In this document: positions 30,001-48,000 of the stretch, in pieces
Position numbering within the stretch: position 1 is the stretch's first letter
How the letters are laid out: every line of letters begins with the position of its first letter
From: Phycisphaerae bacterium
GTDB lineage: Bacteria; Planctomycetota; Phycisphaerae; UBA1845; Fen-1342
Reading direction: 5' to 3'
Assembly: GCA_050115495.1 (NCBI GenBank)
Contig: JASFQK010000016.1
Location: 32,001-96,000, forward strand
DNA length: 64,000 nt
Program-made: the position numbers

Positions 30001-33000
30001 CCGCGAACGTGGCCCCCTTCAGCGGGATGGTCTCGTCCGTCGGAATGACCCGGTCCAACTGGGCGGCGAACGCCGCCAGAACCCGGGCCCGCGCCTCCCC
30101 TCGTGTCGTCCGTGCTGGCATGTCTGCTTCCTCCTTGAAGCACTCCCACTCGCTCGGCTCGCCGCCGGGCCCAACCGCCTCCTATCCTACCCCCAGAACC
30201 CCGCCCCAAGTGTCACGCACCCGGCGACGCGGGAAGGCTGGCGGGGGGGGGGGGCTCGCGGGGGTGGCCGGGGGTGTGGTACACTGCTGGATTCTAGAAA
30301 CGGCTCCGCTGGCGGTGCCGCCGATGTGGTGCAGAAGACGTAGGCGGCCGGGCGGCTTGATGAACCCTGTGGAGGTTGGGACGTGTCCAAGCGTACGATC
30401 GTGGCCATGCCGGGCGACGGCATCGGCAAAGTAGTGCTGCCCGAGGCGCAGCGTGTGCTCCAGGCGGCGGGTTTCGAGGCTGAATACGTCCACGGCGACA
30501 TCGGCTGGGATTTCTGGATCAGCGAGGGCAACGCCCTGCCCGATCGGACGATTAAGCTGCTCGAACAGCACAAGATCGGTCTGTTCGGCGCCATCACGTC
30601 CAAGCCGAAGGACAAGGCCGACGCCGAGCTGTCGCCGGCGCTGCGCGGCAAAGGCTACGTGTACTACAGCCCGATCGTCACGATGCGGCAGCACTTCAAC
30701 CTCGACATCTGCATCCGGCCGTGTCGGTCGTTCCCGGGCAACCCGCTGAACTTCGTCCGGCGGGAGGGCGACGGTTTCGTCGAGCCTCCGGTGAACGCGG
30801 TCATCTTCCGCCAGAACACCGAAGGGCTGTACAGCGGCGTCGAGTGGACAAACCCGCCGGACCCGGTGTACGCGGCGCTGGCCACGCATCCGCGGTTTGC
30901 CAACTACAAGAGCTGCCCGCGGGCCGACCTGGCCGTCTCGACGCGGATCTTCACCCGCAACGCCTGCCGGCGGATCGCCAAGGCGGCGTTCGAGTACGCG
31001 AAGAAGTTCGGTTATCGGTCCGTCACGATCTGCGAGAAGCCGAACGTCATTCGCGAGACGTCCGGCATGCTCACGCTCGAGACGCGGGCCATCGGCCGCG
31101 ACTACCCGGGCATCGAGATCTGGGAGACGAACATCGACGCCCAGATGATGTGGCTGACGAAGAACCCTGAGGACTACGGCGTGATCGTCGCCGGCAACAT
31201 GTTCGGCGACATCGTGTCGGACGGCTTTGCGGGCCTGGTCGGCGGGCTCGGCTTCGCGTGCAGCGCGAACATCGGCGACGAGGTGGCGGTCTTCGAGCCG
31301 ACGCACGGCTCGGCCCCGAAGTATGAGAAGCTCAATCCGCCGATCGTGAACCCAATCGCCATGATCCTGTCGGCGTGCATGATGCTGGATCACATCGGCG
31401 AGACGGCGAGGGCAACGAAGATCCGCGACGCGATCGCGGCGGTCGTACAGGAAGGCAAGGTCCGCATGTACGACATGATGAAGCTGAAGGGCGGCCCGGA
31501 CGTGATCGGCCAGGGCGCCGCCACGACGTCGCAAATGACGGACGCGGTCATCGCGAAGCTGTAGCGGGCGGGCCATGTGGCACCGGATTGCATCCGGTGC
31601 GTCGCTTGACGCCCGCGTCGGATGTAGCGTCGGCCCCCCGTGGCCGACGTCGAGTACGAAAGACGTTGGTTTTCGTGGCGGGCCTGCGGTCGTTCGTTGA
31701 ATCGTGCCACTGCTCTGTGAGCAGCGTCTTCTCGCGCAACCAGCGATCGGCCTTGGTCGGAAGGCAGCCGCGCGCGTAGCCCAGTCAACCAGGATCGTCC
31801 GATGCCAGGGCAGTCCAGACCGCCGCTGCGACGCAAGACGACCCCCAAGGTCCAGGGTGGCAAGCCCCTGCGCAAGAGCCGGACCGCACTGACGCCGCAT
31901 CCACTGCAGATCCCCTCATCGGTTCCCTGGATCGACCGCGAACGCCCCGGTCCCAGCCACCGCCACTTTCTACGCAAGAAGGACATCCTGGAGTTCATCG
32001 ATCTGCTGCCCGAGTGGGACGAACTGGCAAAGGGGCTCAGAGGCATCCTGCTCGCCCGCGGCGAATACGATACCGCCGGCTGGCACCGGCCCGGTCTGGT
32101 CGCCGTCTGTGCCTGGGAGCGCGACGTGTGGCAACGCGTCTGTGTCGAGCACTACGAAGAGCACGCGGACGTTTTTCGCCGGCTCGGCGTCCCCTGCGAG
32201 CGTGCCGGCGACGTCGTCGTCTGCCAGTTCACCGACCAAGCAGTGCGCGACTACCAGCTCCTGCATATCCTGCTGCACGAGCTGGGCCACCACCACGATC
32301 GAATCACCACGCGTAGCAAGGTCGACGCCGCCCGCGGCGAAGGCTACGCCGAGCGCTATGCGTTGAAGTACATGGACGAAATCTGGCACCGCTACGCGGA
32401 GCGGTTCGGGCTGCCGGGCCTATCGTGACGTGCGGCGCGAGTGGATAATGAAAACGTGCTAACCCTGATCTGACGTTTGAGCGTGGGAATGACGTTGGTC
32501 CTCGCGACCGGCGCGTAGCGTCGGCCCCCCGTGGCCGACGTGGAATGCGAACGACGCTGGATCTCGCGGCTGGCGTGTAGCGTCGGCCCCCCGTGGCCGA
32601 CGTCGAAGACGAAGAACACCCCGCCGTTGGGAGCAACCGCATGCGGCCGCCTCGGCGAAAGACACCGCTTCGCGACCTGACGACCTATGGTCGCGGACGC
32701 GCCGTGCGGCTGCCGGACTGTGATTACGTCGGCGAGATCGACCTGCATGTGACGCTTTGCGCTGACCGTGGCACGCCTTTTCGCGACGTTGCCGTGGCAA
32801 GCATGATCTGTGACAACGTGGAGTTTTATTGCCGGAAGCTGGCGTATCGGCTCTATGGGTTCACGGTCGGCCACGGAGGGCCGGCGCTACGGGTTGAGGT
32901 GCGTGGGCGTGTTGGCCGGTACAATGGCCCGTCTGGAGCCTGGTCACTTTGGAGTTGAATGATGCCTCAGACACTTATCGAGAAGATCGCCCAGCGGTAT

Positions 33001-45000: not shown

Positions 45001-48000
45001 GATGGCGGCCTTGGGCAGTGATCGAGAGTCTGTCGCAGGTTTCGCTCTCTTCGTGGGCGATTGACTGCTGGTGATTGAGGATTCCCCACATGGCAGAGAA
45101 GGTCGAGCTCGTCAAGAACGCCGTCGGGCGTATGGTTCCGACGGTCGTCAACGGTCAGAAGCAGGTTCCGTTTCAGGGCGTGGGCAAGTATCGGCCCGAT
45201 GGTCGTAAGGCTGCTCCGCCGGTGCGGACGTGCAATGACTATCCCGCCGACGGGAACAAGGTCGTGGCCAACGCCCAGGCGGCCGGTGGCGGCGACCGGG
45301 CCAACATCGAGGCCCTGAAGACGGCCCTGAAGAACGCCGGCATCCGCAACGGCATGCGGATCAGCTCGCACCACCATTTCCGCAACGGCGACCGCATCGG
45401 CGTGCCGCTGTTCACCGCCGCCGCCGAGCTGGGCGTGAAAGACCTGATCTGGTTCCCGAGCGCGTGTTTCCCGTGCCATGCGCCGTTGATCGACCTGCTC
45501 GAATCGGGCGTGCTGCAACGCGTCGAGGGTTCGATGAACGGGCCGATTGGCGACTACTGCTCGACGGGGAAGATGCGCGGCTTGGGCGTGCTGCGTTCGC
45601 ACGGCGGCCGGTGGCAGGCCGTGCAGGATGGCGAGGTGCACATCGACATCGCCGTCCTGGCCGCTCCGAGCTGTGATTCGTTCGGCAATGCCAACGGCGT
45701 GAACGGGCCGTCGGCGTGTGGCGGGCTGGGGTTCGGGCTGGTGGATTCGCTCTACGCCGACCATGTGATCGCGGTCACGGACAACCTCGTGCCGTTCCCG
45801 TGTCTGCCATGGCAGATTCAGGGCAACAACGTCGACCAGGTTGTGGTGATGGACCGCATCGGCGATCCGGAGAAGATCGTCTCGGGCACGACGCAGCTTA
45901 CCAAGAGCCCGGATCGGCTGATGATCGCCGAGATGGCCGCGCAGTTCGTGCGCGAAGCCGGCATCATGAAGGACGGCTTCAGCTTCCAGGCCGGCGCGGG
46001 CGGAACGACGCTTGGGTTCGCCATCTACCTGAAGGAATACATGAAGCAGGCCGGCGTGAAGGCCCGCTTCATTCGCGGCGGCAGCACGAAATACCTCGTC
46101 GAGATGCTCGAAGAGGGGCTGACCGACTACATCCTCGACGGGCAGACGTTCGACCTGGACGGCGTGCGCAGCATGCGCGACAACCCGCGGCACCAGGATA
46201 CCAGCCCGTTCACCAGCTATAGCTGGCACGGCAAGGGCTGCTTCGCCACGTTCCTCGATGCGGTCGTGCTGGGAGCGACCGAGGTTGACGTGAACTTCAA
46301 CGCCAACGTCGTGACGCACTCCGACGGGCGGCTGCTGCACGGCATTGGCGGGTGGCAGAACTGCCTGAGCGGGCGCTGCGTGATCCTGCCGATTCCCTCG
46401 GTCCGCGACCGGATTCCGGTCATCATGGACGAGGTGACGACGGTCGTGGGTCCGGGCGAGATGATCGACGTGATCGTGTGCGAGCGGGGCATCGCCATCA
46501 ACCCGCGGCGGCAGGATCTGCGCGACGCCGTCGCCGGCAGCAAGCTGCCGATCCGACCGATCGAGGAGATCAAGGCCGAGGTGGACCGCATGTGCGGCGG
46601 TGCACCGGCCAAGCCGCGTCTGAAAGACCAGGTCATCGCGGCGATCAAGTGGGTGGACGGGACGGTGATCGACTGCGTACGGGCCGTGGAGGGGTAGTCG
46701 GGAGTTCGACAGCGGGTCGCCGGACGCCGTGGGGGATTGAGCTTAAGGTTCACGACCTCCCGTGACCGATAACGGTGGCGGCTGTTCGTGCCGCGTGCAC
46801 GAGGCGGCGGCTGTCTGCGTCCACTGGCCGCGCCGCCGGTCGGGCGCGACAGAGAATCGTGTGCGCCTGCGTCGCCCCCTTTGGCGCCGGCGTACGAGGG
46901 CAACATGCAGTATCGTTGCCGCCGGTGGGCGAGCACGAAGCAACCGCTTCCATGGGAGGATACGACAATGAGCCGAACTCGCCATGTCTCGGTACAGGCG
47001 GGCATTGGCCTGTTCCTGGTCCTGTTTGGCCTCAACGAAGCGGTTCGTGCCGCCGACCAGGTTGTTACGAACAACAACGACTCCGGTGCCGGCTCGCTGC
47101 GTCAGGCCATGCTCGACGTGCATGACGGCGGTACGATCACCTTCGACGGCGACTACACGATTACGCTGGCGTCGAATCTGCCGCAGATTAACGACAGCAT
47201 CACCATCGTCGGCCGCGGGTGCGAGCAGACGATCATCGATGGCGACGGCGCGTATCGTATCCTGTACGTGGTTACCGGTAGCCTCACCGCATCGCACCTC
47301 ACGGTGCGTAATGGGAAGGCTGTCGGTAACCTGAACGCGGGGACACTGCTCCTGGACGGCGTCGTCATCGACGGCAACACGGACGTCAGCGGCGCCGGAC
47401 TGCGGCAGAGCGGGACGGGCGGCAGCACGAGCACAACACTTCTCAACTGCACGATCAGCAACAACTTCTCGCCGACCAACCGCGGTGGCGGCATCTACGC
47501 CACCGTCGGCACAGTCACCATCAAGAACTCCACGATCACCGGGAACACTGCCCAATACAACGGTGCCGGTATATGCTGCGAGTCAAGCGGAGCATTTGTC
47601 ATCGACAGTTGCACGATCGCCAACAACCATACCACCGGCACCTACGGCACGGCGAGGGGCGGCGGCATCAGAGTGGCTGGCGGATCGCTGACGATCACAA
47701 ATACCATCATTGCCAATAATCAGGATGACTACGGGAACAATGACTACTCCTACCAGTTTGGAACGCTGACTGACAACGGCTACAACTTCGTGGAGGTGCC
47801 GAACGTTATGGGCGCCAACGGGTTCAGCAACGGCGTCAACCACAATATCGTCGGCGTTAACCCGACCGGCCTAGCCAGCACGCTCTCCTACGAGGGTGGC
47901 TGGACGCCCGTCCTGAAGATCACCGGCGGCACGTTTACCGGTGGCAATTACGGTTCAACCAGCGAAACGCGCGATCAGCGTGGGTACCATCGCAAGTCCG

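What a model noticed while it worked through the whole genome (the two positions that open the first line are those of the whole stretch)
30383..46697. Conserved homoaconitase / citrate-lyase-like gene cluster without CitC, CitG or homocitrate synthase: a candidate homoci [...]
One cluster joins a divergent homoisocitrate-dehydrogenase-like enzyme, a fungal-type (Lys4) homoaconitase, a fused LeuCD-type aconitase, an HD protein, a PrpD/MmgE dehydratase, a CitD-CitE fusion and CitF. Subsets of this gene set recur across phyla, yet the genomes tested lack the CitC ligase and CitG needed by true citrate lyase; it points to an undescribed C7 tricarboxylate pathway linking 2-oxoadipate and homocitrate to an acetyl unit plus 2-oxoglutarate.
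Evidence so far: g02145 scores 753 vs cut 530 on TIGR00139 homoaconitase; CitE, CitF, CitD and the dehydrogenase all fall below their equivalog cuts. Of 73 loci around homologs of g02145, 31 hold the dehydrogenase, 22 PrpD, 22 the HD protein, 21 CitF, 20 CitD-E, in Planctomycetota, Gemmatimonadota, Lentisphaeria, Riflebacteria, Ignavibacteria, Zixibacteria. No CitG or CitC in 5 of 5 genomes tested; no HMGL-family synthase here.
(Added by a program. Inside this text positions count along the whole contig: contig position 32,001 is position 1 of the stretch shown here. "Call 12" and the like, gene names such as g00115 and contig names such as C1 are that model's own, and its searches are not shown. 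The text may have been shortened before it was handed on; [...] marks where a part breaks off. The agent that wrote the report below was given it as the finding of a first reader that could run no searches.)

Follow-up and report, generated by a model that had tools for sequence, protein, structure and literature searches.

The report
Homocitrate-cleaving lysine breakdown gene cluster
This bacterium carries a gene set, shared by many lineages of bacteria and some archaea, that looks built to run the first half of the fungal lysine-making pathway backwards, adding CO2 to a lysine breakdown product and splitting it into acetate and 2-oxoglutarate; no enzyme of it has been tested.

Summary
They form a modular route between 2-oxoadipate and acetyl + 2-oxoglutarate with four slots. 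In 228 related loci two slots are filled by mutually exclusive alternatives: PrpD-like or a divergent fused aconitase (52/32/0 both), Lys4-type or HacA-type hydratase (101/37/0 both). The C-C slot holds CitE/CitF or an ATP-dependent citryl-CoA synthetase/lyase-like set (110/23/2 both). The CitD domain has Arg/Lys in place of the carrier serine in 108 of 112 sequences, which explains the missing CitC/CitG. Lysine is the link: seven loci add saccharopine-pathway genes, and two Phycisphaerales operons join lysWXYZK to a citrate-synthase-fold gene plus the same HD, Lys4, dehydrogenase and PrpD genes. There the dehydrogenase has the NAD-type motif (8 of 8); in the window's type it is NADP-type (105 of 110). 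Best reading (0.6): lysine catabolism by NADPH-driven carboxylation of 2-oxoadipate and CoA-dependent cleavage of homocitrate, probably the (S) form. Against: 16 of 73 cluster genomes show no lysine-oxidation marker, and this genome has a LysW operon without homocitrate synthase or LysA, so biosynthetic use is possible. All chemistry is inferred.

The parts
30383..31564 (+). Homoisocitrate-dehydrogenase-like beta-decarboxylating dehydrogenase, NADP-type coenzyme motif (393 aa)
   Evidence: PF00180; best models AksF/AksF2 below cut. Substrate loop SPIVxxR where E. coli ICD has SLNVxxR; HGSAPKY.
32959..34938 (+). Fungal-type (Lys4) homoaconitase; proposed homoisocitrate to cis-homoaconitate step (659 aa)
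   Evidence: TIGR00139 752.7 over cut 529.9; three Fe-S cysteines and aconitase motifs present.
36390..36968 (+). Small HD-fold protein, constant companion of all three module types; role unknown (192 aa)
   Evidence: PF01966; model pLDDT 97.5, best fold match the YhaM HD domain, Z 16.7, rmsd 3.1 over 169 residues, 17% identity; first residue of the HD pair is Ala, Ile or Cys in 79 of 134 homologues.
37432..39252 (+). Divergent fused LeuCD-type aconitase ('X'); proposed homocitrate dehydratase, alternative to the PrpD-like gene (606 aa)
   Evidence: NF001614 401.8 over cut 385; reads RDF and DC where Lys4/HacA types read HDN and DH; never with PrpD-like in 228 loci.
39310..40683 (+). MmgE/PrpD-family protein; proposed homocitrate to cis-homoaconitate dehydratase (457 aa)
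   Evidence: PF03972/PF19305; far below PrpD equivalog cuts; closest solved relatives IDS epimerase and cis-aconitate decarboxylase; 34% identical to the genome's own prpC-linked PrpD.
42297..43496 (+). CitD-CitE fusion: serine-less ACP-like domain (about residues 1-95) on a CitE-type acyl-CoA lyase; proposed homocitryl-CoA lyase (399 aa)
   Evidence: PF06857 + PF03328; Arg17 aligns with E. coli CitD Ser14; model pLDDT 93.8, pTM 0.91; fold matches are free-CoA lyases CLYBL and malyl-CoA lyase.
45090..46697 (+). CitF-type acyl transferase; proposed homocitrate CoA-transferase (535 aa)
   Evidence: TIGR01584 476.8 under cut 501.45; pocket motif xGS[MLV]N[GD] in 101 of 102 homologues against TSGLRG in E. 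coli.
31802..32958 (+). Two interleaved ORFs of unknown function (208 and 121 aa), not part of the conserved set
   Evidence: No Pfam hit; in 0 and 2 of 74 loci.
35072..36347 (+). Interleaved NAD(P)-binding epimerase-like gene and a 94-aa ORF, not part of the conserved set
   Evidence: PF13460; in 0 and 1 of 74 loci.
36961..37419 (+). Interleaved four-helix-bundle (23S rRNA IVP-like) gene
   Evidence: PF05635, TIGR02436; in 7 of 74 loci at varying places.
40702..42135 (+). Interleaved GAF-histidine kinase
   Evidence: PF01590, PF00512, PF02518; distant hits in 5 of 74 loci, 24-31% identity.
43486..45021 (+). Interleaved beta-lactamase-fold serine hydrolase between citE and citF
   Evidence: PF00144, far below every NCBIfam cut; 1 of 74 loci.

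Best explanation
The cluster is the lower half of a lysine-degrading route that reverses the upper alpha-aminoadipate pathway. Lysine is oxidised to 2-aminoadipate by LKR, saccharopine dehydrogenase and P6C dehydrogenase (genes elsewhere in this genome) and transaminated to 2-oxoadipate. The NADP-type dehydrogenase carboxylates it with CO2 and NADPH to homoisocitrate; Lys4 gives cis-homoaconitate; the PrpD-like protein or aconitase X hydrates it to homocitrate; CitF moves it onto free CoA from acetyl-CoA; CitE cleaves homocitryl-CoA to acetyl-CoA and 2-oxoglutarate. Net: lysine + 2-oxoglutarate + CO2 gives 2 glutamate + acetate, redox-neutral. Shown: gene identities, motifs, co-occurrence, slot exclusivity. 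Inferred: every substrate, the direction, free CoA as carrier, and that the homocitrate is the (S) form (CitE- and citrate-synthase-fold enzymes add acetyl on the same face as citrate synthase, so a PrpD-type enzyme is needed as in the methylcitrate cycle; stereochemistry recalled).
For: Substrate: Lys4 passes its equivalog cut, and such enzymes do only the homoaconitate/homoisocitrate step and need a second enzyme (PMC3556520, passages), which matches two hydro-lyase slots with exclusive fillers. L284 and L288 run lysW-X-Y-Z-K, citrate-synthase-fold gene, HD, Lys4, dehydrogenase, PrpD. Catabolic link: 7 of 228 loci carry LKR, saccharopine dehydrogenase or P6C dehydrogenase, all CitE/CitF loci; L235 (Carboxylicivirga A049) is one co-oriented run of all nine genes, its aldehyde dehydrogenase over the NF050084 cut. 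The own LKR is AASS-type (268 bits) rather than fungal Lys1-type (65 bits). In 300 Planctomycetota genomes LKR is in 6 of 16 HD-positive and 11 of 284 others; LKR or P6C dehydrogenase in 15 of 16 and 122 of 284 (hand count). Direction: KY motif in 105 of 110 dehydrogenases, D[IL] in 8 of 8 from the LysW-linked clade with the substrate loop kept; K344/Y345 against D/I separates NADP from NAD use (PMC3521221, passages). 36 of 73 cluster genomes have LysA and only 7 LysX; G022 keeps a homocitrate-synthase-like gene in its lysW operon besides the cluster. The ATP-dependent filler suits cleavage. Lysine 5,6-aminomutase in 1 of 80 genomes, partial. Carrier: Ser14 replaced in 110 of 112 rows; CitF sits with a citryl-CoA lyase in L207.
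Against: 16 of 73 cluster genomes show neither LKR nor P6C dehydrogenase (completeness not given). P6C dehydrogenase is common anyway (128 of 300) and kin are not independent. Of 6 phylum-draw genomes with a close CitF only 2 have LKR. Only 7 of 228 loci hold lysine-oxidation genes. This genome has lysW-X-Y-Z-J but no homocitrate synthase and no LysA, which invites a biosynthetic role, and it has glutaryl-CoA dehydrogenase and 2-oxoglutarate dehydrogenase, a conventional sink for 2-oxoadipate. NADP-type isocitrate dehydrogenases often work oxidatively, so the motif is a hint only. No aminotransferase was seen in the operons. The PrpD-like protein is closer to an epimerase and a decarboxylase than to PrpD. 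The neighbouring Ser (108 of 112) could be an attachment site. The control genomes for the aminomutase search held no positive.
Confidence: 0.6

Rival explanations
1. Same trunk, biosynthetic or two-way use in this organism: CitE/CitF condense acetyl and 2-oxoglutarate in place of homocitrate synthase and feed 2-aminoadipate to the LysW pathway.
For: Own genome: LysX over cut, LysZ over cut, lysW, lysY, lysJ; no HMGL-like gene, no LysA. The synthase gene found between lysW and lysX in G022 is missing here. The trunk is used this way, with another C-C enzyme, in the LysW-linked Phycisphaerales. The overall reaction is near equilibrium (recalled estimate).
Against: 66 of 73 cluster genomes lack LysX. 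The own LysW ends in Gln, not the usual Glu, so it may be inactive. No Lys2-type reductase in 5 of 5 genomes. The clade tied to lysW has the other coenzyme motif. All 5 of those LysW-linked genomes tested also have a LysA-like gene, so even their need for this route is not shown.
Confidence: 0.2
2. The enzymes act on another 2-oxoacid or tricarboxylate series (longer chain elongation as in methanogen Aks enzymes, methylcitrate-like or alkylmalate acids) and the lysine links are partial.
For: Dehydrogenase, CitE, CitF, PrpD-like and X all fall below or outside named equivalogs; the dehydrogenase's best models are AksF/AksF2. The Synergistaceae version has a different substrate loop.
Against: Lys4 equivalog passed; the same loop and partners occur inside lysW operons and next to saccharopine genes. 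The genome has separate AcnA, ICD, PrpC/PrpD and lacks leucine genes.
Confidence: 0.12
3. A carrier-free citrate lyase or a scavenging route for outside citrate or homocitrate, with the aconitases and dehydrogenase giving glutamate.
For: CitE and CitF are 41% and 37% identical to the E. coli subunits. One earlier scan note read the ATP-dependent version as a citrate link.
Against: G038 has a full canonical citD-E-F-X/G-C operon beside the cluster. The dehydrogenase lacks the isocitrate-binding Asn. No transporter recurs among neighbour clusters.
Confidence: 0.08

Closest known systems
Upper alpha-aminoadipate pathway of fungi and Thermus (homocitrate synthase, aconitase/Aco2, Lys4, Lys12)
   Same: Lys4-type homoaconitase, a homoisocitrate-dehydrogenase-like enzyme, two enzymes for the isomerisation (PMC3556520, passages).
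   Different: No homocitrate synthase (0 of 80 over cut); PrpD-like or aconitase X in the first slot; NADP-type motif where Thermus HICDH has DI; proposed reverse direction and (S)-homocitrate.
Citrate lyase CitDEF with CitC, CitG, CitX (EC 4.1.3.6)
   Same: CitD-, CitE-, CitF-like subunits; CitE catalytic motifs kept.
   Different: CitD fused to CitE and without the carrier Ser; no CitC/G/X; altered CitF pocket motif; clustered with homoaconitase and dehydrogenase.
Citryl-CoA synthetase + citryl-CoA lyase / ATP-citrate lyase of the reductive TCA cycle
   Same: Fills the C-C slot in 25 of 228 loci; reductive carboxylation, isomerisation, cleavage in the same order.
   Different: Not in the window; partners are one carbon longer in proposed substrate; synthetase subunits below SucC/SucD cuts.
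2-Methylcitrate cycle (PrpC, PrpD, aconitase)
   Same: A PrpD-family enzyme pairs with an aconitase-family enzyme because the aconitase cannot dehydrate the Si-made tricarboxylate (PMC3556520, passage).
   Different: Far below PrpD cuts; the genome has its own prpC/prpD elsewhere.
Saccharopine pathway of lysine degradation (AASS, ALDH7/P6C dehydrogenase, 2-oxoadipate dehydrogenase, glutaryl-CoA dehydrogenase)
   Same: LKR, saccharopine dehydrogenase and P6C dehydrogenase present, in one run with the cluster in L140 and L235.
   Different: 2-oxoadipate is proposed to be carboxylated and cleaved rather than oxidatively decarboxylated.

Membership tests
Citrate lyase (CitDEF) | ACP serine (E. coli Ser14, recalled) carrying the prosthetic group | tested here: not met
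   Arg in 101, Lys in 7, Ser in 2, other in 2 of 112 rows.
Citrate lyase (CitDEF) | CitC, CitG and CitX in the genome | tested here: not met
   None in own genome; CitG in 3 of 51, CitC in the same 3 of 5 tested.
Citrate lyase (CitDEF) | CitE, CitF, CitD over equivalog cuts | tested here: not met
   291/443, 477/501, 53/63.5.
Citrate lyase (CitDEF) | Cleaves citrate | not testable with these tools
   Needs an assay.
Fungal-type homoaconitase (Lys4) | TIGR00139 over cut; Fe-S cysteines | tested here: met
   752.7/529.9; motifs.
Homoisocitrate dehydrogenase | Equivalog cut (AksF, AksF2, NF040855) | tested here: not met
   264/540, 248/500, 126/680.
Homoisocitrate dehydrogenase | Substrate loop unlike ICD (no Asn115 equivalent), Ile as in Thermus HICDH | tested here: met
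   SPIVxxR in 98 of 110 homologues; alignments to 3asj and E. coli ICD. Likeness to fungal Lys12 is recalled, not shown by a call.
Homoisocitrate dehydrogenase | NAD-type coenzyme motif (DI) | tested here: not met
   KY in the window and 105 of 110 homologues; D[IL] in 8 of 8 LysW-clade proteins.
PrpD 2-methylcitrate dehydratase | Equivalog cut and linkage to prpC | tested here: not met
   93/950, 79/575, 55/458; prpC-linked paralogue lies on another contig.
Alpha-aminoadipate lysine biosynthesis | Homocitrate synthase | tested here: not met
   No PF00682 match in own genome; 0 of 80 and 0 of 14 over TIGR02146 cut.
Alpha-aminoadipate lysine biosynthesis | Aminoadipate-to-lysine genes (LysW set or Lys2) | tested here: inconclusive
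   Own lysW-X-Y-Z-J present, LysW ends in Gln, no lysK in the operon; no Lys2 in 5 of 5.
HD phosphohydrolases | HD fold and metal-binding His-Asp pair | tested here: inconclusive
   Fold met; HD pair intact in the window and 52 of 134 homologues, first residue changed in 79, unmatched in 3; H65, D104, H130, H155, D175 invariant in 107 rows.

The most novel reading that the evidence does not exclude
A widespread, undescribed (S)-homocitrate trunk with three interchangeable C-C enzymes: a serine-less citrate-lyase pair using free CoA, an ATP-dependent synthetase/lyase, and a citrate-synthase-fold homocitrate synthase. The first two make a redox-neutral, CO2-incorporating route of lysine degradation in lineages that lack the classical lysine fermentation; the third, with an NADP-to-NAD switch in the dehydrogenase, turned the trunk into a new entry to lysine biosynthesis.
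Probability: 0.4. Interest if true: 0.88.

Novelty: new variant of a known kind. Interest (0 to 1): 0.75.

Why it matters
It would add a lysine-degradation route that takes up CO2 and needs no outside electron acceptor, in Planctomycetota, Bacteroidota, Ignavibacteriota, Cloacimonadota, Acidobacteriota, Chloroflexota and Thermoplasmatota records. It would correct annotations: these genes read as citrate lyase, ATP-citrate lyase, isopropylmalate enzymes or fungal lysine biosynthesis. It would give the first homocitrate lyase, a carrier-free CitE/CitF, and a candidate homocitrate synthase of the citrate-synthase fold. One isolate record (Carboxylicivirga A049) holds the nine-gene run, so it is directly testable.

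Tried and rejected
Apparent long fusions upstream of CitF in L006, L043, L045: open-frame artefacts over citD-E in another frame. Promoter and terminator scan: no more than chance. One RNA run with 5% of the words gave short scattered contigs; no evidence of expression or co-transcription. A complex prediction for CitF with the CitD domain was not available, so docking is untested. Fold search of the whole CitD-E model returned only lyase-domain matches, so the ACP-like domain was not tested by fold. HD protein: no PDB sequence match; Atlas hits give only HD/YhaM-like names; its role (homocitryl-CoA hydrolase, lactonase, metabolite repair) stays open. Aldehyde:ferredoxin oxidoreductase as stand-in for P6C dehydrogenase: 3 of 4 such genomes, absent from the own genome; inconclusive. 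The clade test was not informative: the LysW clade is one side of a branch, so its nesting rests on the root. Lysine-catabolic genes beside Verrucomicrobia-type loci L216, L221, L229 were not evident in 8 kb flanks by eye. Literature searches found no description of this cluster or route: (open-access library only; most older enzymology is not held; no supplements were read).

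
Full report
1. Observation. The span 30383-46697 holds, all on the + strand, a beta-decarboxylating dehydrogenase, a Lys4-type homoaconitase, an HD protein, a fused LeuCD-type aconitase (here X), an MmgE/PrpD protein, a CitD-CitE fusion and CitF. Seven other ORFs are interleaved and do not recur with the set. Only Lys4 passes an equivalog cut. The nearest relatives are Planctomycetota records; the genome is 92% complete.

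2. Modules. After merging five duplicates, 228 loci were typed by BLAST against window and locus references (aconitase types at 45% identity or more). PrpD-like 52, X 32, both 0. Lys4 101, HacA-type 37, both 0. CitE/CitF only 110, citryl-CoA synthetase/lyase-like only 23, both 2. Many loci are truncated and kin are not independent, but no overlap in two slots is hard to get by chance. The route therefore has four slots: dehydrogenase, hydratase, second hydro-lyase, C-C enzyme, plus the HD protein. Fungal and Thermus homoaconitases do only the homoaconitate/homoisocitrate step and need a second enzyme (PMC3556520, passages seen), which fits. In 300 evenly drawn Planctomycetota genomes all 6 with a close CitF also have the HD protein, found in 16 of 300.

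3. Why CitC and CitG are missing. E. coli CitD Ser14 (the attachment site, recalled) aligns without gaps to Arg17. Across 112 rows the column is Arg 101, Lys 7, Ser 2, other 2. CitG is in 3 of 51 genomes and CitC in the same three (3 of 5 tested): G039, whose CitD keeps the serine; G038, which has a separate canonical operon; and G035, not examined further. Characterised CitE-like enzymes outside citrate lyase use free CoA esters (PMC3832036, passages), the model's fold matches are such enzymes, and L207 pairs CitF with a citryl-CoA lyase. I infer that CitF and CitE exchange free CoA esters. The next serine is conserved (108 of 112) and cannot be excluded as a site, but no loading enzymes were found.

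4. Substrate. The dehydrogenase keeps the Ser113 equivalent but has Ile for the isocitrate-binding Asn115; SPIVxxR is in 98 of 110 homologues. The genome has separate ICD, AcnA, PrpC/PrpD and no leucine pathway. The strongest evidence is contextual. A citryl-CoA-lyase-like gene found in a lysW operon has 14 relatives; 6 lie behind lysW-X-Y-Z-K, 8 lie before HD-Lys4-dehydrogenase-PrpD, and L284 and L288 have the whole run. These genomes have no homocitrate synthase over cut (0 of 14; 12 without any hit), LysX in 5 of 5 and only ordinary SucC-level hits for the synthetase in 5 of 5; all 5 tested also have a LysA-like gene, which weakens the need for the route. On the other side, 7 CitE/CitF loci carry LKR, saccharopine dehydrogenase or P6C dehydrogenase, and L235 and L140 run citD-E, citF, dehydrogenase, HD, X, HacA-type, P6C dehydrogenase, LKR, saccharopine dehydrogenase. 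Both contexts meet at 2-aminoadipate/2-oxoadipate.

5. Direction. In a panel of 73 cluster genomes chosen by me from the loci (completeness not given): LKR 44, P6C dehydrogenase 38, either 57, neither 16; LysA 36, LysX 7, neither 32; homocitrate synthase over cut 0 of 80; lysine 5,6-aminomutase 1 of 80. LKR was in 0 of 7 Lys4-only genomes. In the phylum draw LKR is in 6 of 16 HD-positive and 11 of 284 other genomes; P6C dehydrogenase in 11 of 16 and 117 of 284. The dehydrogenase has the NADP-type KY in 105 of 110 hits (5 unmatched), including the window. All 8 from the LysW-linked clade have D[IL] and lose the C-terminal Tyr, as Thermus HICDH does, while keeping the substrate loop. They form one clade, sister to KY-type Planctomycetota proteins (99/97; 24 selected rows); nesting depends on a root near L204/L218, and no characterised outgroup was available. 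The simplest reading is that the NAD type serves biosynthesis and the NADP type the reverse, pulled by CoA transfer or ATP-dependent activation. Recalled equilibrium values put the CitE/CitF version near equilibrium, so CO2 and NADPH levels would set the flux.

6. Stereochemistry (inference from recalled facts). Homocitrate synthase gives (R)-homocitrate. Citrate synthase, citryl-CoA lyase and CitE act on the opposite face, which for 2-oxoglutarate gives (S)-homocitrate with the acetyl arm where aconitase does not act. The methylcitrate cycle solves the same problem with PrpD (PMC3556520, passage). All three C-C fillers are of this kind and all go with PrpD-like or X, whose active-site motifs differ from Lys4/HacA (RDF in 12 and DC in 20 of 31). 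An epimerase role for the PrpD-like protein is the alternative.

7. This genome. It has LKR and saccharopine dehydrogenase (C52), P6C dehydrogenase (C4), and also glutaryl-CoA and 2-oxoglutarate dehydrogenases. It lacks LysA and homocitrate synthase but has a lysW operon whose synthase gene is gone and whose LysW ends in Gln. So a catabolic role without oxygen is my best reading, and two-way use is a serious rival.

8. Novelty. Ten searches of the open-access library found no account of this cluster, a homocitrate lyase or this lysine route. I read passages of PMC3556520, PMC3521221, PMC3832036 and PMC11237513 (the last not relevant) and only listings of the others; no supplements. Earlier AI notes of this scan reached parts of the same picture in other genomes; they are not independent support. 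Added here: the slot counts, the three-way C-C module, the coenzyme switch, and the stereochemical account of PrpD.

9. Verdict. Real, conserved, undescribed as far as searched, built from known enzyme families: a new variant. Substrate series about 0.85, catabolic direction for this version about 0.6 overall, (S)-homocitrate about 0.55. Interest 0.75.

Noticed in passing
G000:C4:175253-180005 (L258:5254-10006): lysW-lysX-lysY-(EgtC-like class II amidohydrolase)-lysZ-lysJ without lysK. G022 has the same order plus a homocitrate-synthase-like gene. The EgtC-like gene may replace LysK in releasing lysine from LysW.
   Followed up: partly
L258:5254-5418: The own LysW ends EDWGQ, one base from the usual EDWGE seen in G022, G024 and G069; inactive carrier or assembly error.
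   Followed up: partly
L278-L291: A citryl-CoA-lyase-like gene in 14 Planctomycetota loci: behind lysWXYZK in 6, before HD-Lys4-dehydrogenase-PrpD in 8, both in L284 and L288; candidate homocitrate synthase of the citrate-synthase fold.
   Followed up: yes
L204 (G039, Synergistaceae): Version with separate CitD that keeps the serine, CitC and CitG in the genome, and a different dehydrogenase loop; possibly the carrier-dependent form.
   Followed up: partly
L266 (G038): A canonical citrate lyase operon in a genome that also has the serine-less cluster.
   Followed up: yes
G000 whole genome: dapA, dapB, dapF and a DapL-like gene but no lysA; no leucine pathway; no ackA or pta; an ADP-forming acyl-CoA ligase beside CoA-transferase-like genes on C21.
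   Followed up: partly
G000:C4 (L255:16912-18114, minus): Second saccharopine-dehydrogenase-family gene about 7 kb from the P6C dehydrogenase; may be a lysine 6-dehydrogenase (recalled label).
   Followed up: no
window 27681-29786: Low-GC patch (58% in 28001-30000) with a Zeta-toxin-like AAA protein and a 347-aa orphan just upstream of the cluster.
   Followed up: no
window 54073-58005: Three tandem 413-449 aa paralogues, each with a weak double zinc ribbon hit.
   Followed up: no
window 51254-54106: Two tandem genes with SecDF P1 head-like domains.
   Followed up: no
window 46788-50936: 1382-aa secreted protein with parallel beta-helix, fibronectin III and DUF11 repeats.
   Followed up: no
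window 10400-15561: isc-type Fe-S assembly genes (iscS, iscA, hscB, hscA, ferredoxin) 15 kb upstream of the two Fe-S aconitases.
   Followed up: no
L113, L120, L124, L131, L137, L138: In several Bacteroidales loci citD-E/citF follow methylmalonyl-CoA epimerase and sodium-pumping decarboxylase genes (labels by inspection).
   Followed up: no
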